NCBI GenBank assembly: GCA_039026555.1
Contig: JBCCMB010000001.1
Location: 5,631 to 69,630 of the forward strand
Direction of reading: 5' to 3'
Length of the DNA stretch: 64,000 bases
From: Pseudomonadota bacterium
Lineage (GTDB): Bacteria > Pseudomonadota > Alphaproteobacteria > Caulobacterales > Hyphomonadaceae
Position numbers and translations under genes: made by a program. This document shows positions 25,614-55,135 of this stretch, piece by piece. Numbering within the stretch: position 1 is the first letter of the stretch; the number at the start of each line of letters is the position of its first letter. The notes under the pieces were generated by a model. That model saw nothing but the letters and a program-made list of their open reading frames with translations, was not told where the DNA came from and did not search any database.

Positions 25614-25953
25614 GCAAGTAGGGGAACGCAGATAAGCCTGGCTCGAGAGGGTATGTGCGGCTATCGCGTCTTTGCGCCGTCGATCTTGTCTGCATGGTTT
25701 ACTTATAGGCGCCTGCGATTTGTTTTAACTACGATGCATTTAGCCGTAACGCTCCAGCTACTATCCAAACCGCGTTGGGGCGGGCTTCAACTATGCGAAG
25801 CCCGCCGCCGTCCCGGCTCGCAGGTCCGGCAAGACGGCGGCGGGGTCTTGACGGCGCGGATCCTACTCCGCGCCCGCTCATCATGCGCGGTCCTGGACGC
25901 ACTCCGGGCGCACCCGGCGGTCCCTTAGGATCGCCGGCTCCGGCCCATTTGTG

Positions 25954-26079
25954 GAGCGTGCTGGCCACACGGAAACCGACATTGTTGTTTCGGTTCGTGG
26001 TGGTGTTCCTGTTGCGGTTCGCCGAGCGAAGGTTCTGCGGATTGTTGTTCCAGGAACCACCGCGGAGAACACGACGCGA
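25954..26079 (-). repeat. DGR template repeat (TR), 126 nt
   Basis: Collinear with the terminal 126 nt of four FGE-domain genes. It is AAY-rich (reads NNNPQNLRSANRNRNTTTNRNNN). By hand alignment, all mismatches to VR1, VR3 and VR4 lie at its adenines. The 3' end (GGCCAGCACGCTCCAC) differs from the VR ends (GGCCAGGACGCTTTRA). Confidence 0.85.
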
Positions 26080-26263: not shown

Positions 26264-28648
26264 TCAAAGCGTCCTGGCCACACGGAAACCGACAAGGCTG
26301 CCTCGGTCCGCGGTGGTGCCCCTGAGGCGGTTCGCCGAGCGAAGGCTCTGCGGAATGTGGCTCCAGGAACCACCGCGGAGAACACGACGCGAACATTCTC
26401 CGATTGTCCAAGCAGAGCCGTTCGACGGACCCCCTGAATAACTGGCGTTCCAGCAATCTTGCGTCCATTCCCAGACATTGCCGATCATATCGTGAAGGCC
26501 AAAAGCGTTTGCCTGATATCTGCCAACCAGCGCTGTTTTTTTGCCTACGCCGTCGTCGCAAGTTGAAGTCGTCCAATTACTATCTTCTCGTTTCGCCGTG
26601 ATGTCGGCCGCATTCGAATACGCGCACCCCCCATTCCTATCGTTTCCCCAAGGATAGGCGCTCGTCGTCCCCGCACGCGCCGCATACTCCCATTCCGCCT
26701 CAGACAGAAGGCGATAGGTCTTACCCGTCTTGCGAGACAGCCAACCCGCATAGGCCTGAGCATCGTTCCAATCGACATTGATCACAGGACGCGATCCGCG
26801 ACCCCAGCCTTCATCCCCGCCTGTGCTCGCCGGCCCCGCATCATCGCACGTCCCGTCGGCGACGCATGCGCCCCATTCCGCCCAAGTCACCTCGTATTTG
26901 CCCACCGCGAACTGGTAGTCGATCCGCACAGTCCGGACCGGGCCTTCATCATCGTCGCGGCCTTCCTCCGACGACGGCGAGCCCATCACAAAACGGCCCG
27001 AGGGGATCACGACCATTTCGGGGCCTTGCCCGCCGCCCGAGAGCGCATCGCGGAACACCTGGCCGGGCGTTGAGGGGCGCTCTATCGCTTTGAGTTTCGC
27101 GCGCGCGGCGGCTGCGTTGGCGCCGGATGCGTGGGACGCTAAATACCGCTCATACCCAGCCTTGGTATCCGTGCGCTGCGCCAGCGCCCAGGCTTGCGCC
27201 TCCGCCTCCCGCGCCGCTTGCGCGCGTTGCTTCGCTGCGGCCGCCTCGGCTTCCGCTTTCAGGGCCGCCAGCCGCGTCCGCGCCCGCGCCGCATTCGGAC
27301 CGTTCGGATAGTCGGACAGGAAGCTCTCAATCGCACGGACGGTGTCGGTGCGTTCGGCGACCATCCACGCAGCGTTTTCAGAGATCTCAAATTCTCGCGC
27401 CGCGCGTTCGGCCCGGTCCGCAAACGCGGCGATGTCGTCCAACGCTCCCGTGGCCAGGTCCGGCGCCGTAAGGCCGGCGTCGCTCGCAAAGCTTGCGGCG
27501 GCGGCGATCGTGCCGCGTCCCGCTGCGCCGTCGACGCTGCTGGTGTAGAGGCCGAGACGCTTTAGCGCCGTCTGAACGCGCCGGATCGCTGACGCTCGCG
27601 CGGCGGGGGCGTCCGCAGAGGCCGCTAGCTCTTCGGTTCCGAGCGCAGTTGTTGATGTTTGCGAAGTTGACGACAGGCGATTAAGCGTTTCGAGCGCCTT
27701 GTCGATATTGTCCTTTAGCGTTTGGTCCGTCGTCTGCCGATCAAGCTGTTGCAGCAGCATCGCCGCTCTTTCCGACGACCTCGACGAGATTGGCGTATCA
27801 AGACGGCTGACGACGTTCGCCACGCCCAACTGCTCGTAGTAAACTTGGCTCTCAACACCCCATTCGACAAATTCCAGAATTGCGGATTCGTCCTCATCGC
27901 CATTGATGTTCTCGGCGATTTTTTCGCGCGCCCGCCTTCGAACAGCAGAAATATCAGACGTCAGATCAGAGATCAGCGCGGGGTCTAATCCAGCCACGGT
28001 TTCGCCGGCTGCGGTGGCTGTAGGTGCGCTCGTCGTCGTATCGCGCCAGCCGAAAGGGTCAAACGTCCAAAGGCCGCCGCCTAGACTGACCAAAAGTAGG
28101 GCGACAACAGCGGCGACAACACCGCCAGGACTCGCCTTCGTATCCGCCCCGGGACTACGACTTGGTTTGTCCGCCGGGACCTGTTGGCCGATGTTCAAGC
28201 CGCGGATCAAAACGCCGACATCATTGTCGAAACTGTCCGCGCGCAGCTTGACGCCGTGGCGCATGGAGAGTTCGCGGATGTCTTCGGGCAGCTCGTCCGC
28301 CTCCGGCACGGCGACGCCGTCCAGCAACACCGGGACGACGGGGATGTCGCGTTTCAACGCCGCCGCGATTTCCGCGCGCACGAAATCACGCGGATCGTCC
28401 AAGCGGCGCTTGCCGGTGTCGGGGTCGGCCGCGTTTAGCCAATTACGGCCGATCATGGCGAGGACCATGTCGCACTGGGCGACCGTCATATCGATCTGTT
28501 GCTTGAAGTTCAGCCCGACCGTCATGGAGTCCAGGTCGTAGAAAATGTCGACCTTGGGATCGTCGACTACCTTGGCCAACGCCTCATAAACCGACTTCGT
28601 CTGCCACTGGCTGTCGTCGCGCCTGTAAGAGATGAAGATCTTCGACAT
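26264..28648 (-). CDS. TIR - TM - PG-binding-like/helical repeats - FGE-sulfatase (C-type lectin fold) protein; DGR target 1
   Basis: Start at ATG 28648: MSKIFISYRRDDS (TIR). TM segment VVAAVVALLLVSLGGGLWTF. RRVQTALKRLGLYTSSVDGAAG is PG_binding_1-like. The C-terminal FGE domain has MVVIPSGRFVMGS, VNVDWNDAQAY, LLSEAEWEYAARAG, GLHDMIGNVWEW and RVLRGGSW. Confidence 0.85.
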   Translation of the reverse strand: MSKIFISYRRDDSQWQTKSVYEALAKVVDDPKVDIFYDLDSMTVGLNFKQQIDMTVAQCDMVLAMIGRNWLNAADPDTGKRRLDDPRDFVRAEIAAALKRDIPVVPVLLDGVAVPEADELPEDIRELSMRHGVKLRADSFDNDVGVLIRGLNIGQQVPADKPSRSPGADTKASPGGVVAAVVALLLVSLGGGLWTFDPFGWRDTTTSAPTATAAGETVAGLDPALISDLTSDISAVRRRAREKIAENINGDEDESAILEFVEWGVESQVYYEQLGVANVVSRLDTPISSRSSERAAMLLQQLDRQTTDQTLKDNIDKALETLNRLSSTSQTSTTALGTEELAASADAPAARASAIRRVQTALKRLGLYTSSVDGAAGRGTIAAAASFASDAGLTAPDLATGALDDIAAFADRAERAAREFEISENAAWMVAERTDTVRAIESFLSDYPNGPNAARARTRLAALKAEAEAAAAKQRAQAAREAEAQAWALAQRTDTKAGYERYLASHASGANAAAARAKLKAIERPSTPGQVFRDALSGGGQGPEMVVIPSGRFVMGSPSSEEGRDDDEGPVRTVRIDYQFAVGKYEVTWAEWGACVADGTCDDAGPASTGGDEGWGRGSRPVINVDWNDAQAYAGWLSRKTGKTYRLLSEAEWEYAARAGTTSAYPWGNDRNGGCAYSNAADITAKREDSNWTTSTCDDGVGKKTALVGRYQANAFGLHDMIGNVWEWTQDCWNASYSGGPSNGSAWTIGECSRRVLRGGSWSHIPQSLRSANRLRGTTADRGSLVGFRVARTL
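26267..26392 (-). repeat. DGR variable repeat VR1
   Basis: Last 42 codons of the gene. I count 15 mismatches to the TR, all at TR adenines, for example AAC AAC AAT to AGC CAC ATT. Confidence 0.85.
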
Positions 28649-28702: not shown

Positions 28703-29773
28703 TCACCCTAGAATGCGTTTGCCGTACTTTCGTTCGCCTAGAACTGCATTTCGCAGCTTGCGCGTGTGGGCGAAGTTGGCATGAGCCTCCCAGGCCTCGA
28801 TGCGGACGTGAGCGTCAGCCTCTGTCGTGGTTCCGGCGCTCAATTGGTCGCGGAGGCTGCGCAGGCGGTGACGGAAGCGCCGGATAGTCGCCTCGGGCAA
28901 GCGACGTACGCCTTTAGGCGCCAAGACATAGCACAGGAACTCCGCGGGCTCCGCTGTCGGCGCGACCCAAGTCTTCTGCGTATGAAGCTTTAACCGTCGC
29001 CCCTCCAGGAACCGAGCGATCCGATCCCGCCAATCTGCAAGGATTGCAGGATCGTCGTGAAACAATGCGAAATCGTCGACATATCGCACATAGGGCGCGC
29101 GGAGCACTTCAGTACAAAAATGGTCCAGCGGGTCTAGATAGAGATTGGCGAAAAATTGGCTGGTGAGATTTCCGATCGGCAGGCCGCGCCGGCGGGCGAC
29201 TGGCGCGAATAGATCGTCGCCTGGGAAATGTAGCTCCACCAGCTCTTGGCGGTTTGAAGCGTCGATGATGCAGTCCAGTAGGCCGAGCGTGCGCTCGCAT
29301 GCGAGACGCCGACGCAAATCGCGCTTGAGGATGGCGTGGTCGATGGCTGGGAAATAACGAAAGATGTCGCAGCGCAAGACGTAAGCGCAGCGATCACGAT
29401 AGCGCTCATACGCCTCCACCGCCCGGTGTGCGCCCTTGCCCCGCCGGTTGGCGAAGGTGTGAGCGATGAAGCCGCGTTCGAAAATTGGTTCTACGACGGC
29501 GCATACGGCGTGGTGAACCACGCGGTCGCGAAACGGGGCCGCGGAAACGATACGGTGCTTGGGATCGAAAAGTTCGATCTTCACATACCGGCCGGGGCGG
29601 TACTCGCCGCTTAACAGCGCGCGCTCAAGCGCCAAGCATTCCTTCTCTCGATCAGCCAGGAAAGCGGCGGCGCCAGGTTTCGTCTTTTTGCCGAGAGCTG
29701 CGCGGCGCGTCGCCGATACAAGCGCGCTGAAATTAGCGATCTGCGGACAAAGATTACGTTCACGCTTGGGCAT
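28703..29773 (-). CDS. DGR-type reverse transcriptase
   Basis: DPKHRIVSAAPFRDRVVHHAV, RRGLPIGNLTSQFFANLYL (the DGR hallmark I/LGxxxSQ) and YVRYVDDFALF (YxDD). 356 aa. No maturase or endonuclease domain and no intron-like flanks. Confidence 0.9.
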   Translation of the reverse strand: MPKRERNLCPQIANFSALVSATRRAALGKKTKPGAAAFLADREKECLALERALLSGEYRPGRYVKIELFDPKHRIVSAAPFRDRVVHHAVCAVVEPIFERGFIAHTFANRRGKGAHRAVEAYERYRDRCAYVLRCDIFRYFPAIDHAILKRDLRRRLACERTLGLLDCIIDASNRQELVELHFPGDDLFAPVARRRGLPIGNLTSQFFANLYLDPLDHFCTEVLRAPYVRYVDDFALFHDDPAILADWRDRIARFLEGRRLKLHTQKTWVAPTAEPAEFLCYVLAPKGVRRLPEATIRRFRHRLRSLRDQLSAGTTTEADAHVRIEAWEAHANFAHTRKLRNAVLGERKYGKRILG

Positions 29774-30143
29774 GACGCGCGGACGACGCTTTTAGCCAAC
29801 CTCCGATCAGACGTCCGACCTTGTCAATTTCACGAGCAGCGAATTCATAGCGGCGCGGGTCTAAATGGCGGAGATCATAGGCCAAGCGGAAGAGGTGGCG
29901 CAGTTTCTCCAGGCCGAGATTGGCGGCTTTCAGAGCTGGCGCGCGCTCGCGCGAATAGGTCGCGTCGATCAGGCGTTCCAGCACGTCTAGCGCGGTTCCC
30001 TGAATACGGTCGCCGAGGAGGAATTTCTGGCTGCGTGGAAACTTTTCGACCGCGGGGATCAGCCAGCGTAGGAAGCCGTTCATCGCTTCGAGCGCAGGAC
30101 CGATTTTCCGTTGCCCGGATTCATATTTCAGCGCCCCAAACAT
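29760..30143 (-). CDS. avd: Avd-like accessory variability determinant (four-helix-bundle protein)
   Basis: 127 aa, basic and helical (FPRSQKFLLGDRIQGTALDVLERLIDA...). Its 3' end overlaps the RT start by 14 nt. Confidence 0.75.
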   Translation of the reverse strand: MFGALKYESGQRKIGPALEAMNGFLRWLIPAVEKFPRSQKFLLGDRIQGTALDVLERLIDATYSRERAPALKAANLGLEKLRHLFRLAYDLRHLDPRRYEFAAREIDKVGRLIGGWLKASSARHAQA

Positions 30144-30918: not shown

Positions 30919-33858
30919 TTAAAGCGTCCTGGCCACACGGAAACCGACAAGGTTGAACCGGTCGCCTGTGTCGTTCCTGTCGCGGAACGCCGAGCGGAGG
31001 AGCTGCGGATCGTTGAGCCAGGAACCGCCGCGGAGAACACGACGCGAGCAGTCACCGGCCGTGTGCGGAGCACCGTCGGGAGGCTGAGAAGCAAGCGTGT
31101 CACGATAGCAATCCTCCACCCATTCCCAGACATTGCCATGCATGTCGTAAACGCCGAATGCGTTAGGCTTAAAGCTGCCGATGGGTGCGGTCTCCAAGTA
31201 ATTGCCTTCGCAATCCACGACATCCCACGACAAATTGTATTTTTGTTGTGTGTCGGGATTTGCGAGGTTGGCGTAGGTGCATATCTCTGCGGCGTCGTCC
31301 CCCCAGGAATACGCCGTTTGCGTCCCCGCCCTAGCGGCATATTCCCATTCGGCTTCCGTTAACAGGCGATAGGGGCCGCCGCCCGCGTCCTTCGAAATCA
31401 TCCAATTAAGCCAGCGCACATACCCCTGCGCGTCGTTCCAGTTCAGATTGATGGCGGGATAGGTTCCCGTCCCGAAGCCTGCATCGCTGAGCGGCGCGCA
31501 GCCGATTATTGCTTCGCCATCCTCGGCCGCTAACAAGGCCGCTTGATCTGTGAAGGCGACGCATCGCGCCCATTCCTGATGAGTGATCTCGAACTGGCCG
31601 ACGGCGAAACGTTGGATCTCGATCTCTTTCTGCGGCCCCTCATCGCGAAAGCGGCCGGTTTCGTCGTCAGGTGATCCCATGACGAAACTGCCTGCGGGAA
31701 TAACGACCATTTCCGGGCATTGGGCCTCGGCGGCGCACTCTCGGAATGTCGCGCGAGCGTCAAGATCGGCTAAATCCTGAGATGACAGCGCGTAGCGCGC
31801 ATAATCGAAACGCTGCACCCATTCTCGCTTCAGTTCGAACTCAAACGCGTATCCCATACTGCCAAGCACGACCAAAAGGCCCAACGCGCCGACCGTTGCG
31901 CCAAGAAGCCGCCGGCGAGTCTTAGACCGGTTCTCCGACTTCTGCGCAGCAGACAAATAGTTCTGCTCGACCTCCCCAAGCTGGGGGCCATAGCGGGGAT
32001 GGTCCGCCAGCGCCGAGGCCGCCTTCAGCCGTTCGCCGAAATGGGTGAGGTATTCGCCTCTACGCTCCTGGCGCGCCCAGATCGCGGCGGCCTGTTTCAA
32101 CCCGCGCAAGGCTTCCAGCCGGGCTTTTTCGGGCTCCAGCCAAGCCTCCAGGCGCGGCCATTTGCGGAACAAGGCTTCATGCGCGACTTCGACGGTCCCG
32201 CCTTCGTCTCCGCTTTCCTTACGCACCACCAGCCGCCAGCGGTCGAAGCGCTCCAACAACTCCCGCTCTTCCGGCCCGAACGCGCGCCACGCCGCCACGC
32301 GCCGGATCGCTTCGCCGTCGTCATTCACATCCGCCAGCGGCGGCACGAAGACGGCTGCGCCGAGCTTTGTCTGGTGCGCCTTCGCCCCGCCTGCAGGCAG
32401 GGCTGCGTCGCGCTGTTCCGGATCGATCCCGCACAAAGCGCGCTCGGCCGCGTCCTCGATCAGGCCCGAAAGCCCCCCCATGGAGGCGTAGTCCGCATGG
32501 GCGAGCTTGCCCGACACGGCGAACTGGTCCCACAACCTTTGCAGCGCGAAGGCGAGCAGCGGCAGCGCATCCTTGCCCGGCGCATCCTCCATCAGCGCGT
32601 CGGTGAGCGCGGGATCCACCTCCACGCCATAGCGCGCCGCCGGGTCCTCGGCGACGTCGTCGAAGCGGAAGACGGGCAGCGTGCGCAAATCATATCCGCG
32701 CGCCTCCAACCCCTGAAAACGCGGATGCGCCTGCAGCTCCGGAAAGCTGTCTGTCCGGATGGTGAAGGCGAGCCGGATTGGCGAGGCCGCCTCCATAGCG
32801 GCGCGCAGATAATCAGCGAGCGCCTGGCCGTTCTCCCCGTCGGCCCGGGCGATCTCCTCCGCCTGGTCGACGCTGATGAGGAGGGTCGCGCCCGGGCGAT
32901 TGGCGCGCGTGCGCAGGCGGGCGGCTTGATCCTCCAGTGTTGCAACTAGGGCGGCGCGCCCGTCCTCCGTCAGCTCGGCCTTGTCGTCGCGCGGGGCCTG
33001 GCGCCAAGCCTCCAGCAGCGTTCGCTTCAGCGCGCCATGGGCTTCGCGCGTTCCGAAATCCGCCAGCGTCCCAGTGATCGCCTCCGCGAAGTTAAGCAGA
33101 GGGTCCGCCCCCGGCCGGAAGGCGCGCAAGGGCAGCCAGGCCGGCGCTTCTCGCCGCAAACGCGGAATGATCCCAGCCTTCAAGAGCGAGGATTTCCCGG
33201 CGCCAGACGCGCCGAGAATCACCAGGGGACGTTTGTCCGCGGCCGCCCGCATGGCGCGTAATTCTTCAAGCGCTTCGGCGATCTCCCGCGAGCGGCCGAA
33301 GAACAGCGCGGCGTCCGCATCGTCATCGCCAAAACTCTGCAGCCCTGGAAAGGGCGAGGGCCGCGCTGCGCGGTCTATCTCGAACGCCGCTGGATCGAGG
33401 CCCACAGCCGACAGCGCCCCCGCCTCGCGTAGGCCCCGTTTCAGCGTCTCAGCGCGGTCTTCGTCGCGAGCGAGGCTCAAGCCCTCAGGCGTCAGGAAGG
33501 GCGTCAGATCCAGCCCCTGGGCCTCGGCGCGCACGCGGCCCAGCTCGGCGCGCTGTTTCTCGTCCAGCGTCGCCTCTTCGCCCAGCAGGAAAAGCGGAAT
33601 AATCCGCTTGCCCATATACCAGGCGGCCTTGAACTCGGACGGGCATTCGCCTGAGGCGAGCCAATTGGGCGTTACCAGGCACAAGACCACGCGGCAGGCG
33701 CCCGCGTTCGCTCTCAGCGCATCGGCCCACGCTTCGCCGCCGGAAATGCTCGAATGGTCGATAAAAAGATCGGTAAAGCCTTCGGCTCTCAGCCAGGCCT
33801 CAAGCCGGCTGGCCAAATCGTCATCCCGACTGGAATGGGAAATGAAAATCGTCGCCAC
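30919..33858 (-). CDS. TIR - STAND P-loop NTPase - TM - FGE-sulfatase (C-type lectin fold) protein; DGR target 2
   Basis: MATIFISHSSRDDD (TIR). FFGRSREI...RPLVILGASGAGKSSLLKAG (Walker A) and TLLISVDQAEE (Walker B), followed by a long helical region. TM segment LLGATVGALGLLVVLGSMGYAF preceded by KTRRR. The FGE domain has MVVIPAGSFVMGS, INLNWNDAQGY, LLTEAEWEYAARAG and GVYDMHGNVWEW. Confidence 0.85.
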   Translation of the reverse strand: MATIFISHSSRDDDLASRLEAWLRAEGFTDLFIDHSSISGGEAWADALRANAGACRVVLCLVTPNWLASGECPSEFKAAWYMGKRIIPLFLLGEEATLDEKQRAELGRVRAEAQGLDLTPFLTPEGLSLARDEDRAETLKRGLREAGALSAVGLDPAAFEIDRAARPSPFPGLQSFGDDDADAALFFGRSREIAEALEELRAMRAAADKRPLVILGASGAGKSSLLKAGIIPRLRREAPAWLPLRAFRPGADPLLNFAEAITGTLADFGTREAHGALKRTLLEAWRQAPRDDKAELTEDGRAALVATLEDQAARLRTRANRPGATLLISVDQAEEIARADGENGQALADYLRAAMEAASPIRLAFTIRTDSFPELQAHPRFQGLEARGYDLRTLPVFRFDDVAEDPAARYGVEVDPALTDALMEDAPGKDALPLLAFALQRLWDQFAVSGKLAHADYASMGGLSGLIEDAAERALCGIDPEQRDAALPAGGAKAHQTKLGAAVFVPPLADVNDDGEAIRRVAAWRAFGPEERELLERFDRWRLVVRKESGDEGGTVEVAHEALFRKWPRLEAWLEPEKARLEALRGLKQAAAIWARQERRGEYLTHFGERLKAASALADHPRYGPQLGEVEQNYLSAAQKSENRSKTRRRLLGATVGALGLLVVLGSMGYAFEFELKREWVQRFDYARYALSSQDLADLDARATFRECAAEAQCPEMVVIPAGSFVMGSPDDETGRFRDEGPQKEIEIQRFAVGQFEITHQEWARCVAFTDQAALLAAEDGEAIIGCAPLSDAGFGTGTYPAINLNWNDAQGYVRWLNWMISKDAGGGPYRLLTEAEWEYAARAGTQTAYSWGDDAAEICTYANLANPDTQQKYNLSWDVVDCEGNYLETAPIGSFKPNAFGVYDMHGNVWEWVEDCYRDTLASQPPDGAPHTAGDCSRRVLRGGSWLNDPQLLRSAFRDRNDTGDRFNLVGFRVARTL
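30922..31047 (-). repeat. DGR variable repeat VR2 (divergent)
   Basis: Same length and flanks as the other VRs. By my count ~16 mismatches lie at TR adenines and 6 at non-adenine positions (GGT to GGC, CTT to CTC, and within ACC ACC ACG to GAC ACA GGC). Confidence 0.65.
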
Positions 33859-42775: not shown

Positions 42776-44170
42776 TTAGCCTCCAAGTCGCGATAGCAGA
42801 TCGCGGTCGATTATACCGTCTGTCGGCAGGCCTCTATTCTCCTGCCATCTCAAGACGGCGGCGAACGTCTTCAATCCCAAAACGCCCGCTTCGCGCCCGG
42901 CGGGATCATGCAGGGTGGAAAGTTTTGACTGAATGGTTGCGATATCTTCGCCAGACGACCCGAAGCGCCAACGACGCGCATCGGCGATATTCCATCCTTG
43001 GGCGTGCAGCCGCGCTTCGCGGCCCGTGAGGAGCATATAGAAAAAACGTCGGCCTTTATTGAAGCCGCACGTGAGTCCCAATTGATCTTGGAACGGGACG
43101 ATGCTGTCTCTGTAGGGTATCTTGCATACGCCGCCCTCATCTGTCGTCATACAGCCGCCGCCATGTATCACATTGCACCCCGCCGACCCGTGACGAATGC
43201 CGTCTCTGGAGGGCCAGGCTGGGTGAATATTGTCGTTGACGAGTTCGAAATCCCTGTCCCAATCGGTCAAGCGATATCCAAGCCCATCTTTTGCGCGCAG
43301 CACGGGACCATACCAGTTTGCGTCCTGCCGCAATAGGTTTGGGGATGCAGCGTGACGCCCGCAATGCATAACGTGAAGACCTAGACCAAGCTGGTTCGTG
43401 CGCCAATCCAAGATCGCACGGTTTACAACATCGGGATTTGCGCGATCCTCTGATCTTACGGTGGGGTCGGAAAGTTGCAGCAGACCTTTCAAGAAAAGCC
43501 CAATCCGGTATATCTGCATGTTCATTAGATTTGGTGTGGTTGAGGCCGAAAAAGCGCTAACTGTATGCGCTTTGCGGTCCCACACGCCGATGACGCAGTT
43601 AAGCTCCTGGTGATCAATCGCCGCTTCGATGAGGTCGATGCGCTCGGACGGCTGGCCGGCGGCTGATCGGTTTTGGGCGATCCGGCATCCGCGCAATCCG
43701 AAAACGACCTTATCGGCGTTGATCCGCAGTCCGGGAGCGGTCCCTAGGAAGGTTGCATCATACGCGTTCGAGGCCGCCATCGCCTCCAACGTAGCAGATG
43801 TCAGAGGAAAGACGCTTGCTTCTGCGCCCTCTCCGACATGACGCAGATCCGGCGACTGGGCGTCTTCCACGCGCGCTGCGGAGATCTGTCTGTTTTTCAT
43901 CGCCGGAACGACCCGCTTATCGCGAAGCTCCTTGCGCAGAGTTTTATCCGTTTCGAAATCCTCGAACGTAAAATTGCCGACCGCCGAGGCTTGGGGTTCA
44001 TTAACGAGCGCGTCCAATTGCGCATCGATCGCGTCGTCGTCATAGACGAAATCATCGGCGTCGTAATCGGGTAGCAGTCCTGCCGTAACGTCCTGGGCGC
44101 GCGCGCTCAAACTCCCGAGCGCCGCCGCGCTAAGGCCTAGACTAAGCGCTCTTCGTCGATTGATTATCAT
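42776..44170 (-). CDS. Tat-signal exported protein with a C-terminal peptidoglycan-binding domain
   Basis: ATG 44170 gives MIINRRRALSLGLSAAALGSLSARA (twin-arginine) behind GGGAGGGGA. The C-terminal IQSKLSTL...LGLKTFAAVLRWQENRGLPTDGIIDRDLLSRLG is PG_binding_1-like. The central region is unassigned (HGSAGCNVIHG). Confidence 0.6.
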   Translation of the reverse strand: MIINRRRALSLGLSAAALGSLSARAQDVTAGLLPDYDADDFVYDDDAIDAQLDALVNEPQASAVGNFTFEDFETDKTLRKELRDKRVVPAMKNRQISAARVEDAQSPDLRHVGEGAEASVFPLTSATLEAMAASNAYDATFLGTAPGLRINADKVVFGLRGCRIAQNRSAAGQPSERIDLIEAAIDHQELNCVIGVWDRKAHTVSAFSASTTPNLMNMQIYRIGLFLKGLLQLSDPTVRSEDRANPDVVNRAILDWRTNQLGLGLHVMHCGRHAASPNLLRQDANWYGPVLRAKDGLGYRLTDWDRDFELVNDNIHPAWPSRDGIRHGSAGCNVIHGGGCMTTDEGGVCKIPYRDSIVPFQDQLGLTCGFNKGRRFFYMLLTGREARLHAQGWNIADARRWRFGSSGEDIATIQSKLSTLHDPAGREAGVLGLKTFAAVLRWQENRGLPTDGIIDRDLLSRLGG

Positions 44171-44339
44171 GAGCTCCCCTCCCAACCTGCTGCTAAACGT
44201 TAACGGACGGTCCCGCATTGCTCAAGCTTTCAGCTGCGACCCGTTCGGTCGCGGGCGGACAGCCTTGTTCGCCCTGGCGCATCCGCTAGGGTTCTGTATT
44301 GTCGCGTGAAGTGTTCAGCGTGTTGGGGACGAACGAAGC

Positions 44340-45704
44340 GTGGGATGGCTTCTTAGAGCTTTGGTCTGGTCTGTGGCGCTTGTTTGCTGCGCAGGGTTGG
44401 TCGGATGGTTTCTCATCGCCGGGCATAAACATGTTGCGGGTCTAGACGGGCCGGGGCGGCAATTAGAGACCGCGGTGATCTCCGCTGATGGTAGATACGT
44501 CGCTATTTTGCTCAATGATGGGGCGGCGGATGTTCAAACGATTGAGGGGGAGACGCTCGGGCTTATTCGCGGGCACGACGCGCCGTTGGCGGCGGCGCAT
44601 TTTTCGCCCGACGGCGAGATACTGATCACGATTGACGACGCGGGCAGTGTCCGCCGAACGCGGCTGGAGGGGCTCTTTTTTCGAGAAAGGGGGCATGGCG
44701 CCGATATGTCGGCGGCGGTCGAGCAGGCGGTTTGGGGCGATGCGTTGGCCGCACCGGCGGCGCTATTATGGGAGACAAGCGCGATCCATGCGCCCTGGAA
44801 GGCGTCGTCGCAGATTATGGATGCAGACACGCGCGCGCCTGTTTTGCCAAAGGGCGCAGTCCCGCCGCCGAGGAGCATGTTTCGAGATTGCGCAGATTGC
44901 CCGGAAATGCTGGTTGTTCCGCCGGGCGCATTCCTTATGGGCTCTCCTGAAGATGAAGAGGGGCGTGATCCCGATGAGGGCCCGCAGCGAGACGTGCGGA
45001 TCGATTATCCTTTCGCCGCGGCGCGGTTTGAGACGACGCTCGCGGAGTTTCAACGCTTCATGAAAGAGACTGGCCATGCGCCGGCGGGCGGGTGCGTCGC
45101 CGATTCCAACGGCGATGGGTTGTTGTCCGATGAGCCTGAGGCTAATTGGTCAAACACGGGGTTTGAACAAAGCGACGCCCAGCCCGCAGCCTGCGTTTCG
45201 TGGAACGACGCGCAGGCCTATGTGCATTGGCTGTCGCGCAAAACGGGCGAGACGTATCGTCTGCTTTCGGAAGCGGAATGGGAGTATGCGGCTCGGGCTG
45301 GGACGACGAGCGCCTATTTCTGGGGCTCAAGCGCAGATGCCGGCTGCGCTTATATGAACGGAGCGGACGCGACGGCGAAGCGCTCCTATCCTGGCTGGAC
45401 GACCGTGAGTTGCGATGACGGCTATTTGAATACGTCGCCCGTAGGCTCGTTCAACGCGAATGCATTTGGTCTTTACGACATGACGGGCAATGTTTCGGAG
45501 TGGACTGAGGATTGCTGGAATGAGAGCTATTCCGGTGCGCCGATAAATGGCTCGGCGTGGATAAGCGGCGAGTGCTCGCGTCGTGTTCTCCGCGGTGGTT
45601 CCTGGAGCGGCTATCCGCGGAGCCTTCGCTCGGCGCTCCGCGGCTGGAACTCCACCTCGGACCGGTACGACCATGTCGGTTTCCGTGTGGCCAGGACGCT
45701 TTAA
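44340..45704 (+). CDS. N-terminal TM anchor - short WD40-like segment - FGE-sulfatase (C-type lectin fold) protein; DGR target 3
   Basis: GTG start. TM segment LVWSVALVCCAGLVGWFLIAG. The FGE domain has MLVVPPGAFLMGS, VSWNDAQAYVHWLSRKTGETYRLLSEAEWEYAARAG, GLYDMTGNVSEW and RVLRGGSW. Confidence 0.8.
   Translation: MGWLLRALVWSVALVCCAGLVGWFLIAGHKHVAGLDGPGRQLETAVISADGRYVAILLNDGAADVQTIEGETLGLIRGHDAPLAAAHFSPDGEILITIDDAGSVRRTRLEGLFFRERGHGADMSAAVEQAVWGDALAAPAALLWETSAIHAPWKASSQIMDADTRAPVLPKGAVPPPRSMFRDCADCPEMLVVPPGAFLMGSPEDEEGRDPDEGPQRDVRIDYPFAAARFETTLAEFQRFMKETGHAPAGGCVADSNGDGLLSDEPEANWSNTGFEQSDAQPAACVSWNDAQAYVHWLSRKTGETYRLLSEAEWEYAARAGTTSAYFWGSSADAGCAYMNGADATAKRSYPGWTTVSCDDGYLNTSPVGSFNANAFGLYDMTGNVSEWTEDCWNESYSGAPINGSAWISGECSRRVLRGGSWSGYPRSLRSALRGWNSTSDRYDHVGFRVARTL
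45576..45701 (+). repeat. DGR variable repeat VR3
   Basis: I count 18 mismatches to the TR, all at TR adenines. It is on the opposite strand and ~19.5 kb from the TR. Confidence 0.85.
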
Positions 45705-45723
45705 CCCCCTTTTTCCTTTAACA

Positions 45724-45770
45724 GCGGGCGAGAGCCCGCGTCTTGTACCGGCGAAGCCGGTTCGGTTTTC
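45724..45770 (+). terminator. Post-VR3 module: GNRA-loop hairpin plus terminator-like hairpin
   Basis: GCGGGC-GAGA-GCCCGC (45724-45739), then ACCGGCGAAGCCGGT (45747-45761) followed by TCGGTTTTCG. Nearly identical to the module after VR1. Confidence 0.6.
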
Positions 45771-45965
45771 GATCCTCGGACACACACAGCTGAATGGATC
45801 GAAGCGCTTGATCTATTGAAATATTTTGAGATGCGGTTGGGTGTCCCCAGGCGATATCAAACATGGATTATCTCATTTTTTAATTTCAAGGCCGCCGGAA
45901 CGGAGGGCTAGCGTCCAGAGCACGCCGTGTGTAACGTGAAGTTGCGGGGAATGTGGAGCTAGGAC

Positions 45966-47306: not shown

Positions 47307-47314
47307 GGGACACA

Positions 47315-48388
47315 ATGATGACCGAACAACGCGCCGCTTATCCCTATTTCAAGCGAGGCATTGCGGGGTATGAGCAGGAGCCCGCGCCGCGAGCGGAAGA
47401 GGCGCGCCCTTATGATCGCAGAAAAGCGGAAGCGTCCGCCGACTATATCCCCCATGAGGATTTGTCTCACGCCGTCAATGTCGCCTTGGCGCTCGGCATG
47501 CCGCTCTTGCTCACCGGCGATCCCGGGACCGGCAAGACCCAACTCGCTTACGCCGTAGCGCATGACCTTCAATGCCCGGTTCACAAATTTGAAACCAAGT
47601 CGACGAGCGCCGCGAAGGATTTGTTCTACACCTATGACGCGCTAACCGCGTTCAAGATTAAGGAGGCGGCCGATCCGCGTCAGTTCATTCGCTACCAAGC
47701 GTTGGGCCGCGCCATATTAGAGGCGTTTCCCTCAAACCATCCCGCCGTCGAAAAGCTATTGCCTCCAGCGGGATCGCCCAACCACACGCATCCAGGGCGA
47801 CCGCGTCGCGCGGTCGTACTCATCGACGAGATCGACAAAGCGCCGCGGGATTTTCCCAATGACTTGCTCAACGAAATAGACCGTCTGCACTTCCGAGTGC
47901 CGGAGCTTCAAAATATCGGGTCCCCCGGAGCGGACGCCGCCGAACGAGGTGAAGACGAAAGCGAGCAAGGCGTGTCGCCGGAATTTCGGCCCATCGTCAT
48001 CCTAACGTCGAACTCCGAAAAGGGATTGCCCGATCCGTTCCTACGCCGCTGCGTTTACTATGACATTCCCTTCCCGGAAGGCGATCAGATGGCGAAAATC
48101 GTAGCGGCGCGCGTGAAAGGCGTGGACGCCGGCGACCCCATGCTCGCGGATGCGCTGGATCTCTTTTATTCGCTGCGCCACGACAAAGGGCTGACCAAGC
48201 TGGCCAAAGAGCCGTCGACGGCCGAATTGCTGAATTGGCTGCATTTGCTGCTTCATCGCGGCGTTGCTGGGGGTAAGTCCCTTAAGACCCAGCCGGATCT
48301 GGTGAAGCAGACAATCTCCACGCTCGTGAAGAATTCGCGCGATCGGGAAGAGGCGATCGCTTTTGTCGATAATTGGAAAGCCGGCTGA
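47315..48388 (+). CDS. MoxR-like AAA+ ATPase
   Basis: PLLLTGDPGTGKTQLAYAVA (Walker A), AVVLIDEIDKAPRDFPNDLLNEID (Walker B and the MoxR-typical stretch) and ILTSN (sensor 1). Confidence 0.85.
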   Translation: MMTEQRAAYPYFKRGIAGYEQEPAPRAEEARPYDRRKAEASADYIPHEDLSHAVNVALALGMPLLLTGDPGTGKTQLAYAVAHDLQCPVHKFETKSTSAAKDLFYTYDALTAFKIKEAADPRQFIRYQALGRAILEAFPSNHPAVEKLLPPAGSPNHTHPGRPRRAVVLIDEIDKAPRDFPNDLLNEIDRLHFRVPELQNIGSPGADAAERGEDESEQGVSPEFRPIVILTSNSEKGLPDPFLRRCVYYDIPFPEGDQMAKIVAARVKGVDAGDPMLADALDLFYSLRHDKGLTKLAKEPSTAELLNWLHLLLHRGVAGGKSLKTQPDLVKQTISTLVKNSRDREEAIAFVDNWKAG

Positions 48389-48412
48389 ACGGGGTAGGGC
48401 GGGATTTGCGCC

Positions 48413-54400: not shown

Positions 54401-55135
54401 CCCGAGATGGTCGTGATTCCGTCGGGTCGGTTCCTGATGGGTTCGCCGGCGTCTGAGGCCGCGCGCGACGATGATGAAGGCCCGGTTCGGACGGTTCGGA
54501 TCGATTATCAGTTTGCGGTCGGCAAGTATGAAGTGACCTGGGCGGAATGGGAGGCGTGCGTCGCCGACGGCGCGTGCGATGACGCCGGTCCGGTCGGCGC
54601 AGACGGGGATGAAGGCTGGGGGCGCGGGTCGCGTCCTGTGATCAATGTGGATTGGAACGATGCGCAGGCCTATGTGCGCTGGCTGTCGCGCAAAACGGGC
54701 AAGACGTATCGTCTGCTGTCTGAAGCGGAATGGGAGTATGCGGCTCGCGGGGTGACGACCACAGAAGCCGTCTCGACGCGTTTCAGCTGGGGAGACGAGG
54801 ATCCGGTTTGCGAACGCGGCGCGCCGAACGGGGCGGTGTTTAGTCGATGCGAAGGCGGGGGAACGCGGCCCGTTGGGTTTTCGGCTCCGAACGCCTTTGG
54901 TCTTTACGATATGCACGGCAATGTTTGGGAATGGGTGGAGGATTGCTGGAATGACAGCTATTCTGGCGCGCCATCGAACGGCTCAGCTTGGACGCGCGGC
55001 GGATGTTCGCGTCGTGTTCTCCGCGGTGGTTCCTGGGGCAACGATCCGCAGCTCCTTCGCTCGGCGGACCGCCTCAGGAGCACCACCGCGAACCGACTCG
55101 ACTATGTCGGTTTCCGTGTGGCCAGGACGCTTTAA
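48413..55135 (+). CDS. Giant 2240-aa multidomain protein: N-terminal domain - TM - WD40 repeats - TM - large unassigned region - ~7 TM helices - propeller-like region - caspase-like (C14) domain - FGE-sulfatase domain; DGR target 4
   Basis: Six 42-aa WD40 repeats (TRILSWSxDxTVRLWDAQTGDQIG). Hydrophobic helices at about aa 115, 650 and 1130-1400. Caspase-like RRLALVIGNAEYEQLPDLKNPLNDA...VYFGGQG...NYLIPTD...FVLDTCRND. The FGE domain has MVVIPSGRFLMGS...RVLRGGSW. Confidence 0.85.
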   Translation: MADGASAAEFEDEEVARLLGDELERLFDRLDEAGLLVGPRERSAAYAIAFQWLGGTRAPPARASEAMWRLRPMLAPVLARTQNDRAVFFHVFDTNYEPQPINPPDEPDPPLKGWPWRRIVLGIAATIMLSGLASVVYHRTQNEADVVVVEDGPSGVAKIEPIQTDGDAPVATERRAAPLADQTANDFLNRIRDAATAIDGDVYRYGLAPTLEEVAKELIDDSRSLRNATPADGGGVALSSQTTILAGGVLSGAAFSNDETRILSWSSDNTVRLWDAQTGDQIGPSMQHNFIVRGAVFSKDDTRILSWSVDNTVRLWDAQTGDQIGPSMQHEDAVGGAAFSNDETRILSWSDDATVRLWNAQTGNQIGTLMGHGRDVYGAAFSKDETRILSWSRDATVRLWDAQTGDQIGPSLQHEHVVLGAAFSKDETRILSWSDDATVRLWDANTGDQIGRPMVHKGRVSGAALSKDESRILTWSEDGRISSWSDPGASLDAEWSADAYARRLSDLTGLPGGAPLSIFANNGALWARLAHALSRMEQPGRETSLSQLRADAAKSLEDVQPSRVDRIAEKLRALDAPPTDRAALFDAVFALDEAAASDAPSIDQNIGFGPASDVLRAAAIAGLDAARYGDPPWLNLKPPARPAASPAPAWLWPLSVLIPLAFAFWVASSLALKRAYLRRRAPRVPPLHTKFVSEAGRNVAYQAGLFQRAAQQLLTRTPRASAAIDIPATVSATLAEGGEIIAPVFKDARLRPEYLVLIEANAAGDQEARRLRRMAERLEDIVDLDVFYYQTDPGELESEDGANRITIEQAQSRYPDHRLIILGTGGGFLDAVDLSLRPPAQKLFYWERRALLTPIPLAEWSKEDYALAKALEMPIGRATPEGLLTLAELLGLEGAEAGTEPNPSGDGLARPLPDLFRNRSQRFLFNAPPDQATIADLLRELRNYLDPSAFDWFASLAVYPNVQWDLTLLLGVKLPRAPGEDFATNPLYDERRLAAITQLPWLRSGRMPNWLRRTLISKLSPERREEIKAVLDELLENARPKNKHEVDAIELSIRRDKPKDTTRTDRLLDDEVLLDFLASGQREDFALARFSRFAELFDRGFWDRIGGPEGVAGAAALAFSLTAFVVTPRAADGAVVTGAYAPLWLLGVGGLLVFAFWKPDIAAARLGAAFERAAPGALALFLATLGPLAAAYVSARSGVDPLSIVATSNTTSFWIWGAYIAQFGLLVGGLWVSRSICTRFGLRIYVAASLPDWAELSIKAAGLGAFALAITALAGNVPGLAEFSRSPLVDPDQLDASAMLWLGGCLAVFLLGWLAAQFAPDMQTIRAASAGRSAKPALFAIVARALAALVPVVASLAAYWHVSLTSSRSDLAMDETVFRPALTAISPDGETLAAVDIAGRLVVSHANAAAPYRADPTQLSDARAPFTALAVGGEGEAVIAFADADGRVFEATPYRDAVAPVVDPSENSGRARSDGAPAQLAFGPNAQLWTAIETAEVGVRVITAGRAWNDAEQSGPPQALIAVSGGRAALATLDGRIRLVTPTSDGLAVQLIGASGSLAPSRQLSFDPDTMTLRAGLIDGEIWEANLVDSGASFEFVGRANAMALGPAPLYTTSSEISPFVGPATPSGRRLALVIGNAEYEQLPDLKNPLNDARLISESLESLGFEVSRLQNASRNEMLQAVRQHAQNVAAAGRNSVSFVYFGGQGVEIDGQNYLIPTDLSAHEPATVRSDSLLLNDVISEIDTVGPAASLFVLDTCRNDPFSGQRGSIGQGFAPANAPTNTFIAFAVEPGGIALDSLDARDNNSPYTSTLAETLLIPGLSVQDAFAEVRRKVTAATSGEQVPWISDRLASEFCFAGCEVQTPEPAAIPSALPPRLYIQIASEAQREDALRVREALSPLDVDVPEFEVRSASMPDRGEFRYFRRSEEGLARETYNALPDLDAGGAAFVYVSGYEDSEDIRDNHFELWLPGPTMLEDDFQPGFEFRDVIEGAPEIATPEMVVIPSGRFLMGSPASEAARDDDEGPVRTVRIDYQFAVGKYEVTWAEWEACVADGACDDAGPVGADGDEGWGRGSRPVINVDWNDAQAYVRWLSRKTGKTYRLLSEAEWEYAARGVTTTEAVSTRFSWGDEDPVCERGAPNGAVFSRCEGGGTRPVGFSAPNAFGLYDMHGNVWEWVEDCWNDSYSGAPSNGSAWTRGGCSRRVLRGGSWGNDPQLLRSADRLRSTTANRLDYVGFRVARTL
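49150..49900 (+). repeat. Tandem 126-bp in-frame repeats encoding WD40 blades
   Basis: Period 126 nt (units start at 49166, 49292, 49418 and so on). Units 1 and 3 share an identical 45-nt string, GGCGCGGCGTTCTCAAATGATGAAACACGCATCCTCTCATGGAGC. The sixth unit is degenerate. Confidence 0.85.
55007..55132 (+). repeat. DGR variable repeat VR4
   Basis: I count 14 mismatches to the TR, all at TR adenines. It is on the opposite strand and ~29 kb from the TR. Confidence 0.85.

What the first reader, a model, noticed from the sequence alone, without database searches (positions are those of the whole stretch)
45576..45770. Remote DGR target VR3: opposite strand, ~19.5 kb from the TR
The last 126 nt of gene 44340-45704 align colinearly with the TR. 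I count 18 mismatches, every one at a TR adenine. Examples are AAC AAC AAT to AGC GGC TAT, CAG to CGG, AGG to TGG and ACC to TCC. The first 30 nt (TCGCGTCGTGTTCTCCGCGGTGGTTCCTGG) and the last ~27 nt (GTCGGTTTCCGTGTGGCCAGGACGCTT) are invariant. The downstream hairpin module is almost identical to the one after VR1. A single TR/RT therefore appears to service targets far from the cassette and in inverted orientation.
Basis: seen in the sequence. Interest (0 to 1): 0.85.

Follow-up and report, generated by a model that had tools for sequence, protein, structure and literature searches.

The report
Distant inverted DGR hypermutation target
The last 126 bases of gene 44340-45704 are a genuine extra target of a retroelement 19.5 kb away that rewrites protein tips by error-prone reverse transcription; it is a clean example, but distant and inverted targets of this kind are already documented.

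Summary
Window 45576-45701 (+) aligns without gaps to a 126-nt template repeat (TR) at 25954-26079 (-). There are 20 mismatches. Eighteen lie at TR adenines and account for every mismatch in the variable core. The other two, C>G at 45695 and C>T at 45701, are shared by all four variable repeats (VRs) in the window and mark the IMH/IMH* distinction.

The window holds one DGR core: bAvd 29760-30143, RT 28703-29773 and the TR with a conserved 3' RNA element. It has four FGE-sulfatase (C-type-lectin fold) targets, two on each strand.

Between the paralogous targets, third-codon-position identity is 40-55% just before the VR and 41/41 inside it. Identity at A-templated sites is about 29%. This shows that TR-derived cDNA overwrote VR3 after the paralogues diverged.

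VR3 also carries the expected cis elements: a GC hairpin with a GAGA loop 22 nt downstream, then a terminator-like hairpin.

Non-adjacent targets (45 of 372 surveyed DGRs) and orientation-independent homing are published. This is therefore a new member of a known kind. Ongoing activity could not be tested, because no second VR3 allele exists in the public data searched.

The island is cargo of an integrative conjugative element and encodes TIR, STAND, caspase and WD40 conflict-system proteins.

The parts
45576..45701 (+). VR3: variable repeat, the last 42 codons of the target gene. The variable core is 45606-45673.
   Evidence: Gapless 126-nt alignment to the TR. There are 20 mismatches and 18 are at TR adenines.
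45675..45701 (+). IMH-like 3' end of VR3. It is identical in all four VRs and differs from the TR (IMH*) at 45695 (G vs C) and 45701 (T vs C).
   Evidence: The same G/C difference separates VRs from the TR in relative L020.
44340..45704 (+). Target gene 3. It has a short N-terminal region (a possible membrane anchor and a WD40-like fragment) plus an FGE-sulfatase / C-type-lectin-fold domain. The start codon is uncertain: GTG at 44340, or residue 46 of this ORF (44475), as implied by the NCBI product being 409 aa.
   Evidence: PF03781 E=1.1e-63 over residues 187-452. PDB hits are PvdO at 6.8e-68 and Treponema variable protein 2y3c at 1.2e-5.
45705..45719 (+). Pyrimidine tract CCCCCTTTTTCCTTT between the stop codon and the hairpin. 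It is present after all four VRs and absent after the TR.
   Evidence: A related YCTTTAC motif follows the VR in 29 of 33 relatives' VRs, against 2% of random windows.
45724..45739 (+). GC-rich hairpin/cruciform GCGGGC-GAGA-GCCCGC, 22 nt after the VR. It is the presumed target-recognition element.
   Evidence: DNA fold (z = -3.3 for the 74-nt module) and hairpin scan. It fits the GRNA loop and the 4-34 bp spacing reported in PMC3240598.
45747..45770 (+). Second hairpin ACCGGC-GAA-GCCGGT followed by a short T run. It looks like an intrinsic terminator for the target gene.
   Evidence: The same element follows VR1 and VR2.
25954..26079 (-). Template repeat (TR). It has 30 A, of which 29 sit at codon positions 1 or 2, and is rich in AAC/AAT.
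25878..25953 (-). Conserved RNA element immediately 3' of the TR. It has a 10-bp hairpin, pairing between TR positions 121-124 (ACGC) and GCGT at 25897-25900, and the motif GCGTCCAGG-N6-CATGATGA. It is presumed to be the Sp-like cis-acting part of the DGR RNA.
   Evidence: Twelve of 16 predicted pairs show compensatory changes across 20 sequences.
28703..29773 (-). DGR reverse transcriptase, with IGNLTSQ and YVDD motifs.
   Evidence: Translation. RVT_1 hit. The best PDB match is 8ub7 at E=1.6e-41 over the full length. It is the only RT in the window.
29760..30143 (-). Accessory variability determinant (bAvd).
   Evidence: PF22296 E=2.6e-17. NF033474 scores 102.4 bits against a cutoff of 80.
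26267..26392 (-). VR1, at the end of the TIR + FGE gene 26264-28678.
   Evidence: There are 15 A mismatches plus the 2 IMH differences.
30922..31047 (-). VR2, at the end of the TIR + nSTAND1 + FGE gene 30919-33858.
   Evidence: There are 16 A mismatches and 8 non-A mismatches.
55007..55132 (+). VR4, at the end of the 2240-aa WD40 + caspase + FGE gene 48413-55135. It is the second inverted, non-adjacent target.
   Evidence: There are 14 A mismatches plus the 2 IMH differences.

Best explanation
VR3 is a non-adjacent target, in inverted orientation, of the single diversity-generating retroelement in the window. The mechanism below is inferred from the Bordetella phage paradigm.

1. The TR and its conserved 3' RNA element (26079 to about 25878, minus strand) are transcribed.
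2. The RT-Avd complex copies the TR into cDNA, misincorporating opposite template adenines.
3. The diffusible cDNA (or its ribonucleoprotein) finds any DNA site that carries the IMH and a nearby GC hairpin with a 4-nt loop.
4. The cDNA replaces the homologous 126 nt.

The intermediate acts in trans and recognition uses local cis elements. Distance and strand therefore do not matter, and VR1-VR4 are all rewritten from one template.

The result is randomisation of up to 16 codons in the ligand-binding tip of an FGE-type C-type-lectin domain (a 17th A-bearing codon, CGA, changes only synonymously). That gives about 7e16 DNA variants and about 7e15 protein variants, and no A-bearing codon can mutate to a stop.

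The protein is probably a hypervariable sensor that works with the adjacent TIR-iSTAND, AAA+ ATPase and WD40-caspase genes in a conflict or immunity-like system. The whole island is carried on an integrative conjugative element.

Shown here: the sequence signature of past retrohoming into VR3 and the presence of all known cis and trans components. Inferred: current activity, the integration mechanism and the sensor function.
For: (1) Adenine specificity. In the core, 18 of 18 mismatches are at TR adenines, P = 1e-9.

(2) Step change at the VR boundary. Between VR3 and its paralogues, third-codon-position identity is 17/42 (VR1) and 23/42 (VR4) in the 42 codons before the VR. It is 41/41 inside the VR, with Fisher P = 2e-10 and 2e-7. 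Identity at A-templated sites is only 8/28. This pattern means DNA-level copying from the TR, not protein-level conservation and not VR-to-VR gene conversion.

(3) The IMH is identical in all four VRs and differs from the TR at the same two bases. The same G/C discriminator is seen in relative L020.

(4) Hairpin GCGGGC-GAGA-GCCCGC lies 22 nt after the VR. This fits the published GRNA loop and 4-34 bp spacing (PMC3240598). VR4 keeps the hairpin with a different stem sequence.

(5) The trans-acting machinery is intact. The RT carries IGNLTSQ and YVDD and its best PDB hit is 8ub7 at 1.6e-41. Avd scores above the NCBIfam equivalog cutoff.

(6) The TR carries a clade-conserved 3' RNA structure with covariation. 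This element occurs once in the window, and there is only one RT.

(7) TR design is typical of DGRs. Twenty-nine of 30 A are at codon positions 1 or 2, and no stop codon is reachable.

(8) Precedent within the same RT clade. L020 (RT 65% identical) has an inverted VR about 11 kb from its TR, at the end of a short 469-aa gene, with the same downstream module as its adjacent VR.

(9) Literature. Forty-five of 372 DGRs have non-adjacent targets (PMC5758913). Inverting the BPP-1 target does not impair homing (PMC3240598).
Against: There is no direct evidence of ongoing diversification.
- Only one VR3 allele exists in the data searched. Its 90%-identity cluster has one member.
- Two exact-pattern scans of JGI metagenomes found nothing.
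- The plasmid collection gave no match.

The hairpin stem is 6 bp, slightly shorter than the 7-10 bp reported for phage DGRs.

The VR2 and VR4 loops are GCAA, which departs from the GRNA consensus, so the loop rule may differ in this clade.

VR2 carries six non-A differences beyond the two shared IMH/IMH* positions. Not every VR of this element is therefore refreshed often.

The part of the source contig outside the window was not examined for a second DGR.
Confidence: 0.85

Rival explanations
1. VR3 is a fossil target. It was rewritten by the DGR in the past but is no longer diversified, for example because the RT is not expressed or this site is no longer recognised. The A-specific differences are then a frozen record.
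For: No population variation could be found. VR2 in the same element has accumulated six extra non-A changes, two of them synonymous third-position transitions. This shows that some VRs here go long periods without being overwritten. The T run after VR3's second hairpin is shorter than after VR1 and VR2.
Against: VR3 has no non-A substitutions outside the two IMH/IMH* positions. Its 96 non-A positions are identical to those of VR1 and VR4. The IMH, hairpin, RT motifs, Avd and TR-3' RNA element are all intact.
Confidence: 0.12
2. VR3 and VR4 are serviced by a second DGR core (avd-RT-TR) with a near-identical TR that lies outside the 64-kb window, not by the TR at 25954-26079.
For: The unit formed by the short CLec-only gene, the AAA ATPase and the long target (VR3...VR4) resembles the cassette in L020, where that unit is followed directly by its own avd-RT-TR. 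Two near-identical TRs in one locus do occur in a relative, L045. The rest of the source contig was not seen.
Against: No RT, Avd remnant or TR-3' element lies next to VR4. ORF 55344-55763 has no Pfam hit, there is a single RT by tblastn and a single TR-3' motif. VR3 and VR4 share exactly the same non-A sequence and the same IMH as VR1, which sits next to the TR.
Confidence: 0.03
3. The similarity is ordinary paralogue conservation or RecA-type gene conversion among the 3' ends of FGE-domain genes, with no retroelement involved.
For: The four genes are paralogues, 46-73% identical at the protein level in the upstream 200 codons. Their non-templated 75-nt downstream modules are also unusually similar (49-66/75), which needs an explanation other than the TR.
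Against: Gene conversion would homogenise A-templated sites as well, yet those are only 8-14/28 identical between VRs while non-A sites are 96/96. Protein-level selection cannot explain 41/41 identical synonymous third positions next to 40-55% just upstream. The fifth copy is non-coding, A-rich, and lies beside an RT and Avd.
Confidence: 0.01

Closest known systems
Bordetella phage BPP-1 DGR (mtd-avd-TR-brt)
   Same: It uses an Avd plus RT core and adenine-specific TR-to-VR differences. The VR sits at the 3' end of a C-type-lectin-fold gene. IMH and IMH* differ. A GC hairpin with a 4-nt GRNA-type loop lies downstream of the VR. The target works when inverted and the core works in trans (PMC3240598, PMC5758913). 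The window's RT best matches PDB 8ub7, which from my own knowledge is bRT.
   Different: BPP-1 has one adjacent target and is phage-borne, with gene order avd-TR-brt. Here there are four targets on two strands, up to 29 kb from the TR. The order is target-avd-RT-target-TR. The targets are FGE-type rather than Mtd-type lectin folds, and the host is an integrative conjugative element.
Treponema denticola DGR with remote TvpA-family targets
   Same: One TR/RT serves several FGE-type (TvpA-like) targets away from the cassette. PMC5758913 counts seven non-adjacent targets. The VR3 protein matches TvpA (2y3c) at E=1.2e-5.
   Different: The Treponema element uses an HRDC accessory gene (architecture C) and its targets are lipoproteins scattered across the chromosome. 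Here the accessory gene is Avd and the targets are clustered in one mobile island next to conflict-system genes.
DGR-diversified putative antigen sensors of conflict systems (Thiohalocapsa PB-PSB1 clade 5 DGRs, PMC10907252; ternary and STAND systems, PMC7159879)
   Same: C-terminal FGE/CLec VRs are fused to TIR, nSTAND1 or caspase, or sit beside a MoxR-like AAA ATPase. A short CLec-only target is paired with a long target. Neighbouring genes encode TIR, trypsin and caspase effectors. Some loci are diversified in trans.
   Different: Here one core serves both a STAND-type pair (VR1/VR2) and an AAA/iSTAND-type pair (VR3/VR4). The island sits between the relaxase and the coupling protein of a conjugative element in an alphaproteobacterial MAG. 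A vWA domain could not be confirmed.
Cyanobacterial remote variable proteins (PMC7517822)
   Same: Paralogous CLec genes away from the RT (defined there as more than 5 kb away) carry 3'-terminal VRs matching the genome's TR. Seventy-six remote targets are reported.
   Different: That work used a looser criterion (at least 50% identity to the TR). VR3 here meets the strict A-only criterion and retains an identical IMH and hairpin.
Relative L020 (Hyphomonadaceae MAG JBEIHX010000024.1)
   Same: It belongs to the same RT clade (65% identity). An inverted VR lies about 11 kb from the TR, at the end of a short gene upstream of an AAA ATPase and a long target. It uses the same IMH/IMH* G/C discriminator.
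   Different: Its avd-RT-TR directly follows the long target. Its post-VR module is G/T-rich rather than a pyrimidine tract followed by a GAGA hairpin.

Membership tests
DGR variable repeat (target of mutagenic retrohoming) | A TR/VR near-repeat whose differences fall overwhelmingly at TR adenines | tested here: met
   Eighteen of 20 mismatches are at A, and 18 of 18 in the core, P = 1e-9.
DGR variable repeat (target of mutagenic retrohoming) | A DGR-type reverse transcriptase on the same replicon | tested here: met
   ORF 28703-29773(-) hits RVT_1 and carries IGNLTSQ and YVDD. Its best PDB hit is 8ub7 at E=1.6e-41. No DGR-specific RT model was available. The NCBIfam group II RT model scored below its cutoff.
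DGR variable repeat (target of mutagenic retrohoming) | An accessory protein (Avd, HRDC or similar) next to the RT | tested here: met
   NF033474 (DGR Avd equivalog) scores 102.4 bits against a cutoff of 80. PF22296 gives 2.6e-17.
DGR variable repeat (target of mutagenic retrohoming) | The VR lies at the 3' end of an ORF encoding a C-type-lectin-fold (here FGE-sulfatase subtype) or Ig-like domain | tested here: met
   The VR is the last 42 codons. PF03781 E=1.1e-63 and TvpA 2y3c E=1.2e-5.
DGR variable repeat (target of mutagenic retrohoming) | TR adenines sit at codon positions 1 and 2 (AAC-rich), with no stop codons reachable | tested here: met
   Twenty-nine of 30 A are at positions 1 or 2. 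There are 11 AAC/AAT codons. No stop is reachable.
DGR variable repeat (target of mutagenic retrohoming) | An IMH at the VR 3' end that is not identical to IMH* at the TR 3' end | tested here: met
   Two differences (45695 and 45701) are shared by all four VRs and conserved in L020.
DGR variable repeat (target of mutagenic retrohoming) | A GC-rich inverted repeat with a 4-nt GRNA loop 4-34 bp after the VR. This is found in only 34% of DGRs, so it is supportive rather than obligatory. | tested here: met
   45724-45739, loop GAGA, 22 nt after the VR. The stem is 6 bp against the 7-10 bp reported.
DGR variable repeat (target of mutagenic retrohoming) | Observed diversification: VR polymorphism at A-templated sites within a population or between strains | not testable with these tools
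   No second allele was found. The cluster has one member. Metagenome scans gave 0 hits, the plasmid collection gave none and the contig look-up failed.
'Remote' DGR target in the sense of Wu et al. 2018 (PMC5758913) | More than 100 kb from the RT gene | tested here: not met
   VR3 is 15.8 kb from the RT and 19.5 kb from the TR. By that paper's usage it is a 'non-adjacent' target.
Non-adjacent DGR target in the sense of Wu et al. 2018 | Only A-to-N differences from the TR (minor exceptions allowed), and not part of another DGR | tested here: met
   There is no second RT or TR element in the window. The region outside the window was not seen.
iSTAND / MoxR-vWA ternary conflict system (PMC7159879), as the context of VR3/VR4 | [quoted passage not shown] | tested here: inconclusive
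   AAA_5 gives 3.7e-10 for 47315-48388. iSTAND PF19995 scores 29.7 bits against a cutoff of 24 for 45966-47306. vWA appears only as a sub-threshold hint, VWA_CoxE E=0.042.

The most novel reading that the evidence does not exclude
One avd-RT-TR core, carried as cargo on a conjugative element, co-diversifies four sensors from two different classes of NTPase-based conflict system, on both strands.

Targets may be recruited through a portable cassette of about 200 bp: VR, IMH, pyrimidine tract, GNRA-loop hairpin and terminator. The 75-nt non-templated part of this cassette is kept 83-88% identical among VR1-VR3 and 65-75% against VR4, beside saturated synonymous sites.

The pyrimidine tract would then be a previously undescribed, clade-specific cis element for target recognition. 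Its YCTTTAC form follows 29 of 33 VRs in relatives.
Probability: 0.2. Interest if true: 0.55.

Novelty: new member of a known kind. Interest (0 to 1): 0.3.

Why it matters
This is a clean natural example of a single DGR template servicing targets in both orientations, up to 29 kb away, inside a mobile island. It agrees with the experimental finding that IMH plus hairpin are sufficient and that orientation is irrelevant.

The find offers three practical uses:
- A compact four-target system for testing how a DGR chooses among targets. VR2 looks neglected, while VR1, VR3 and VR4 look freshly written.
- A candidate extra cis motif.
- A conserved TR-3' RNA structure for this alphaproteobacterial DGR clade.

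Biologically, it adds a case where hypervariable lectin-fold sensors of TIR, STAND and caspase systems travel together on a conjugative element. It does not change current understanding of DGRs.

Tried and rejected
- **Other VR3 alleles, to test for A-site polymorphism.**
  - The protein search found only the identical NCBI MAG protein. The next relative is about 52% identical and covers the FGE domain only.
  - Exact scans of JGI metagenomes with a VR3-specific flank and with the common IMH found nothing.
  - Megablast against plasmids found nothing.
  - The contig look-up for the NCBI protein was not on record.
- **A second RT, TR or degenerate VR in the window.** None was found.
- **Rfam.** It gave only tRNA-His, so no curated family covers the TR-3' element.
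- **PADLOC.** It gave only generic TIR, RT and AAA domain hits, and no known defence system.
- **Pairing between the pyrimidine tract and the DGR RNA.** I tested whether the tract could pair with a complementary purine motif near the TR. No such motif occurs near the TRs of relatives, so I rejected the idea.
- **A vWA domain in the 2240-aa target.** Only a sub-threshold hint was found.
- **Gene conversion or ordinary conservation.** I rejected these on the A-site versus non-A-site contrast.
Full report
**1. Observation**

- One copy, at 25954-26079 on the minus strand, is A-rich: 30 A in 126 nt. It lies outside any credible gene and is the template repeat (TR).
- The other four are the last 42 codons of long ORFs. 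They are VR1 26267-26392(-), VR2 30922-31047(-), VR3 45576-45701(+) and VR4 55007-55132(+).

VR3 aligns to the TR without gaps and has 20 mismatches.
- Eighteen are at TR adenines. They are the only mismatches in the core, TR positions 31-98, which contains 28 A among 68 bases. The hypergeometric P is 1e-9.
- The other two are TR C120>G (window 45695) and C126>T (window 45701). All four VRs share them.
This is the IMH versus IMH* distinction described for DGRs (PMC5758913).

**2. What is there**

The window holds one DGR core on the minus strand.
- bAvd lies at 29760-30143. It hits PF22296, and NF033474 scores 102 bits against a cutoff of 80.
- The reverse transcriptase lies at 28703-29773. 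It carries IGNLTSQ and YVDD. Its best solved-structure match is 8ub7 at E=1.6e-41 over the full length. From my own knowledge that entry is the Bordetella phage bRT.
- The gene order is target2(VR2)-avd-RT-target1(VR1)-TR. Relatives L007, L019, L025 and L041 place the TR the same way, beyond a target that follows the RT, and L019 and L025 also have the second target upstream.

A tblastn search with the RT finds no second RT. A tblastn search with the FGE domain finds exactly the four targets plus the TR.

All four targets end in an FGE-sulfatase domain, the C-type-lectin-fold subtype of the Treponema variable protein TvpA.
- Target 1 is TIR + FGE.
- Target 2 is TIR + nSTAND1 + FGE.
- Target 3, the VR3 gene, is short. 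It has a possible N-terminal membrane anchor if the GTG at 44340 is the true start, then a WD40-like fragment, then FGE.
- Target 4 is a 2240-aa WD40 + caspase + FGE protein.

A TIR-iSTAND gene and an AAA_5 ATPase lie between VR3 and target 4. Upstream are a trypsin-like protein and a protein with a peptidoglycan-binding domain, and a TIR-WD40 gene lies downstream of target 4.

The whole region is cargo of an integrative conjugative element. The supporting features are tRNA-His at 18615-18691 next to a tyrosine integrase, ArdA, DUF2840, a DUF3363 relaxase at 23610-25613, a TraG-type coupling protein at 58940-61036 and a VirB11-like ATPase.

The identical protein in the databases comes from an NCBI MAG labelled Pseudomonadota. 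The closest RTs are from Hyphomonadaceae and Caulobacterales MAGs, at 74-79% identity.

**3. Evidence that VR3 was really written from this TR**

The four targets are old paralogues.
- In the 200 codons before the VR they are 46-73% identical in protein.
- Identity at third codon positions there is only 44-59%.
- In the 42 codons immediately before the VR, third-position identity of VR3 is 17/42 with VR1 and 23/42 with VR4.

Inside the VR the pattern reverses.
- All 41 third positions not templated by A are identical, with Fisher P = 2e-10 and 2e-7.
- All 96 non-A positions are identical among VR1, VR3 and VR4.
- A-templated sites are only 8/28 identical, which is close to random.

The switch occurs exactly at TR position 1. 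Protein-level selection cannot produce identical synonymous sites. Gene conversion between VRs would also homogenise the A sites. Copying from the TR with randomisation at adenines explains both features. This is the signature of mutagenic retrohoming, and it must have acted on VR3 after the paralogues diverged.

**4. Cis elements**

After the TAA stop, VR3 has three elements.
- A pyrimidine tract at 45705-45719.
- A hairpin GCGGGC-GAGA-GCCCGC at 45724-45739.
- A second hairpin ACCGGC-GAA-GCCGGT with a short T run at 45747-45770, which scores as terminator-like.

For phage BPP-1, Guo et al. (PMC3240598) showed four relevant points.
- A GC-rich hairpin or cruciform downstream of the VR is needed for efficient homing.
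- Stem sequence is free but the 4-nt loop (consensus GRNA) matters.
- Natural spacings from the VR range from 4 to 34 bp.
- IMH plus hairpin are enough to redirect the DGR to a foreign gene.

VR3's hairpin has a GAGA loop and a 22-nt spacing, so it fits, although its stem is 6 bp rather than 7-10 bp. VR4 keeps a hairpin at the same place with a different stem (GCCGC/GCGGC) and a GCAA loop. VR2 also has a GCAA loop.

On the donor side, the TR is followed by an RNA element conserved across the RT clade.
- It has a 10-bp hairpin.
- TR positions 121-124 pair with a GCGT that precedes CCAGG-N6-CATGATGA.
- Twelve of 16 predicted pairs show compensatory changes in 20 sequences.
- The element occurs once in the window, right after the TR.

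**5. Mechanism**

I infer the standard pathway.
1. The TR-containing RNA is transcribed.
2. RT-Avd synthesises adenine-mutagenised cDNA.
3. The cDNA replaces any VR that carries the IMH and the hairpin.

The intermediate is diffusible and recognition is local. This accounts for targets on both strands, 0.2 to 29 kb from the TR.

Published experiments support both properties.
- The avd-TR-brt core works in trans from a plasmid (PMC5758913).
- Inverting the BPP-1 target leaves homing unchanged, so replication polarity is irrelevant (PMC3240598).

The TR allows 4^28, about 7e16, DNA variants and about 7e15 protein variants. No stop codon is reachable.

What remains unproven is current activity. 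No second VR3 allele exists in any collection I could search.

**6. Comparison with known systems**

Non-adjacent targets were assigned to 45 of 372 DGRs in the Wu et al. survey, at distances from a few kb to megabases. Treponema denticola has seven (PMC5758913). Seventy-six remote CLec targets were reported in cyanobacteria (PMC7517822). Trans diversification was inferred in Thiohalocapsa (PMC10907252).

The functional context is also described in PMC7159879 and PMC10907252.
- FGE/CLec sensors are fused to TIR, nSTAND1 or caspase, or sit next to MoxR-like ATPases and iSTAND proteins.
- A short CLec-only target is paired with a long one.

Within the same RT clade, L020 has an inverted VR about 11 kb from its TR, at the end of a short gene.

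By Wu et al.'s usage VR3 is 'non-adjacent', not 'remote' (>100 kb).

**7. Verdict**

The feature is a new member of a well-known kind and is of modest interest.

Three aspects are more unusual.
- One core serves two classes of conflict-system sensors on a conjugative element.
- The non-templated post-VR module is conserved.
- A YCTTTAC-type pyrimidine motif follows VRs throughout this clade: 29 of 33 VRs against 2% background. I found no mention of it in the searchable literature.

These aspects are recorded as leads, not conclusions.

Noticed in passing
window 30922-31047 (-), VR2: VR2 differs from the TR at six non-A positions beyond the two IMH positions: T21C, T51C, C77A, C81A, C83G and G84C. 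Three of the six (T21C, T51C, C81A) are synonymous third-position changes. VR1, VR3 and VR4 have none. VR2 therefore looks rarely overwritten, no longer overwritten, or subject to non-canonical mutagenesis.
   Followed up: partly
window 45705-45719 and equivalents after VR1, VR2 and VR4; loci L006-L050, within 75 nt after each VR: A pyrimidine tract lies between the stop codon and the hairpin. In relatives it is a tandem YCTTTAC motif (for example TCTTTACCTCTTTAC), present after 29 of 33 VRs against 2% of random 75-nt windows. It is absent after TRs, and no complementary motif occurs near TRs. I found no description of it in the searchable literature. It may be a clade-specific cis element.
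   Followed up: partly
window 25878-25953 (-); 3' flanks of the TRs in L006-L050: A conserved structured RNA element lies immediately 3' of the TR. It has a 10-bp hairpin with abundant covariation, pairing of the TR 3' end (ACGC) with a downstream GCGT, and the invariant motif CCAGG-N6-CATGATGA. It has no Rfam family. It is probably the Sp-like priming and RT-binding part of the DGR RNA for this clade.
   Followed up: partly
window 45702-45776 compared with 26192-26266 (-), 30847-30921 (-) and 55133-55207: The 75 nt after the VRs are not templated by the TR, yet they are 62-66/75 identical among VR1-VR3 and 49-56/75 with VR4. The next 75 nt drop to about 43/75. Homology ends at the terminator T run. 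This implies either strong selection on the module or spread of a VR-to-terminator cassette between genes.
   Followed up: partly
window 18615-25613 and 58940-62516: The DGR and all four targets lie inside an integrative conjugative element. It is integrated beside tRNA-His (18615-18691). It carries an integrase (18647-20005), ArdA, DUF2840, a DUF3363 relaxase, a TraG coupling protein and a VirB11-like ATPase.
   Followed up: partly
window 44340-44475: The start of the VR3 gene is ambiguous. The longest ORF (GTG at 44340, with GGGGA upstream) adds a hydrophobic N-terminal helix. The NCBI product is 409 aa, which implies a start 45 codons downstream. Whether the sensor is membrane-anchored depends on which start is real.
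   Followed up: no
window 44340-55135 compared with L020:27-11206: The VR3...VR4 unit (short CLec-only gene, TIR-iSTAND, AAA ATPase, giant WD40-caspase target) mirrors the L020 cassette, except that in L020 avd-RT-TR directly follows the long target. The window's unit may have lost its own core and become dependent on the neighbouring one.
   Followed up: no
window 55157-55170 and 30886-30901 (-): The hairpin loops after VR4 and VR2 are GCAA. This is a GNRA loop but not the published GRNA consensus. The VR4 stem sequence is changed while pairing is kept.
   Followed up: no
window 34679-37178 and 38875-44218: The genes between the DGR core and VR3 include a PhyH dioxygenase, a LuxR-type autoinducer-binding regulator, an unannotated 633-aa protein with a weak TPR hit, a 622-aa trypsin-like protein and a 480-aa protein with a peptidoglycan-binding domain. 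None matched a known defence system in PADLOC.
   Followed up: partly
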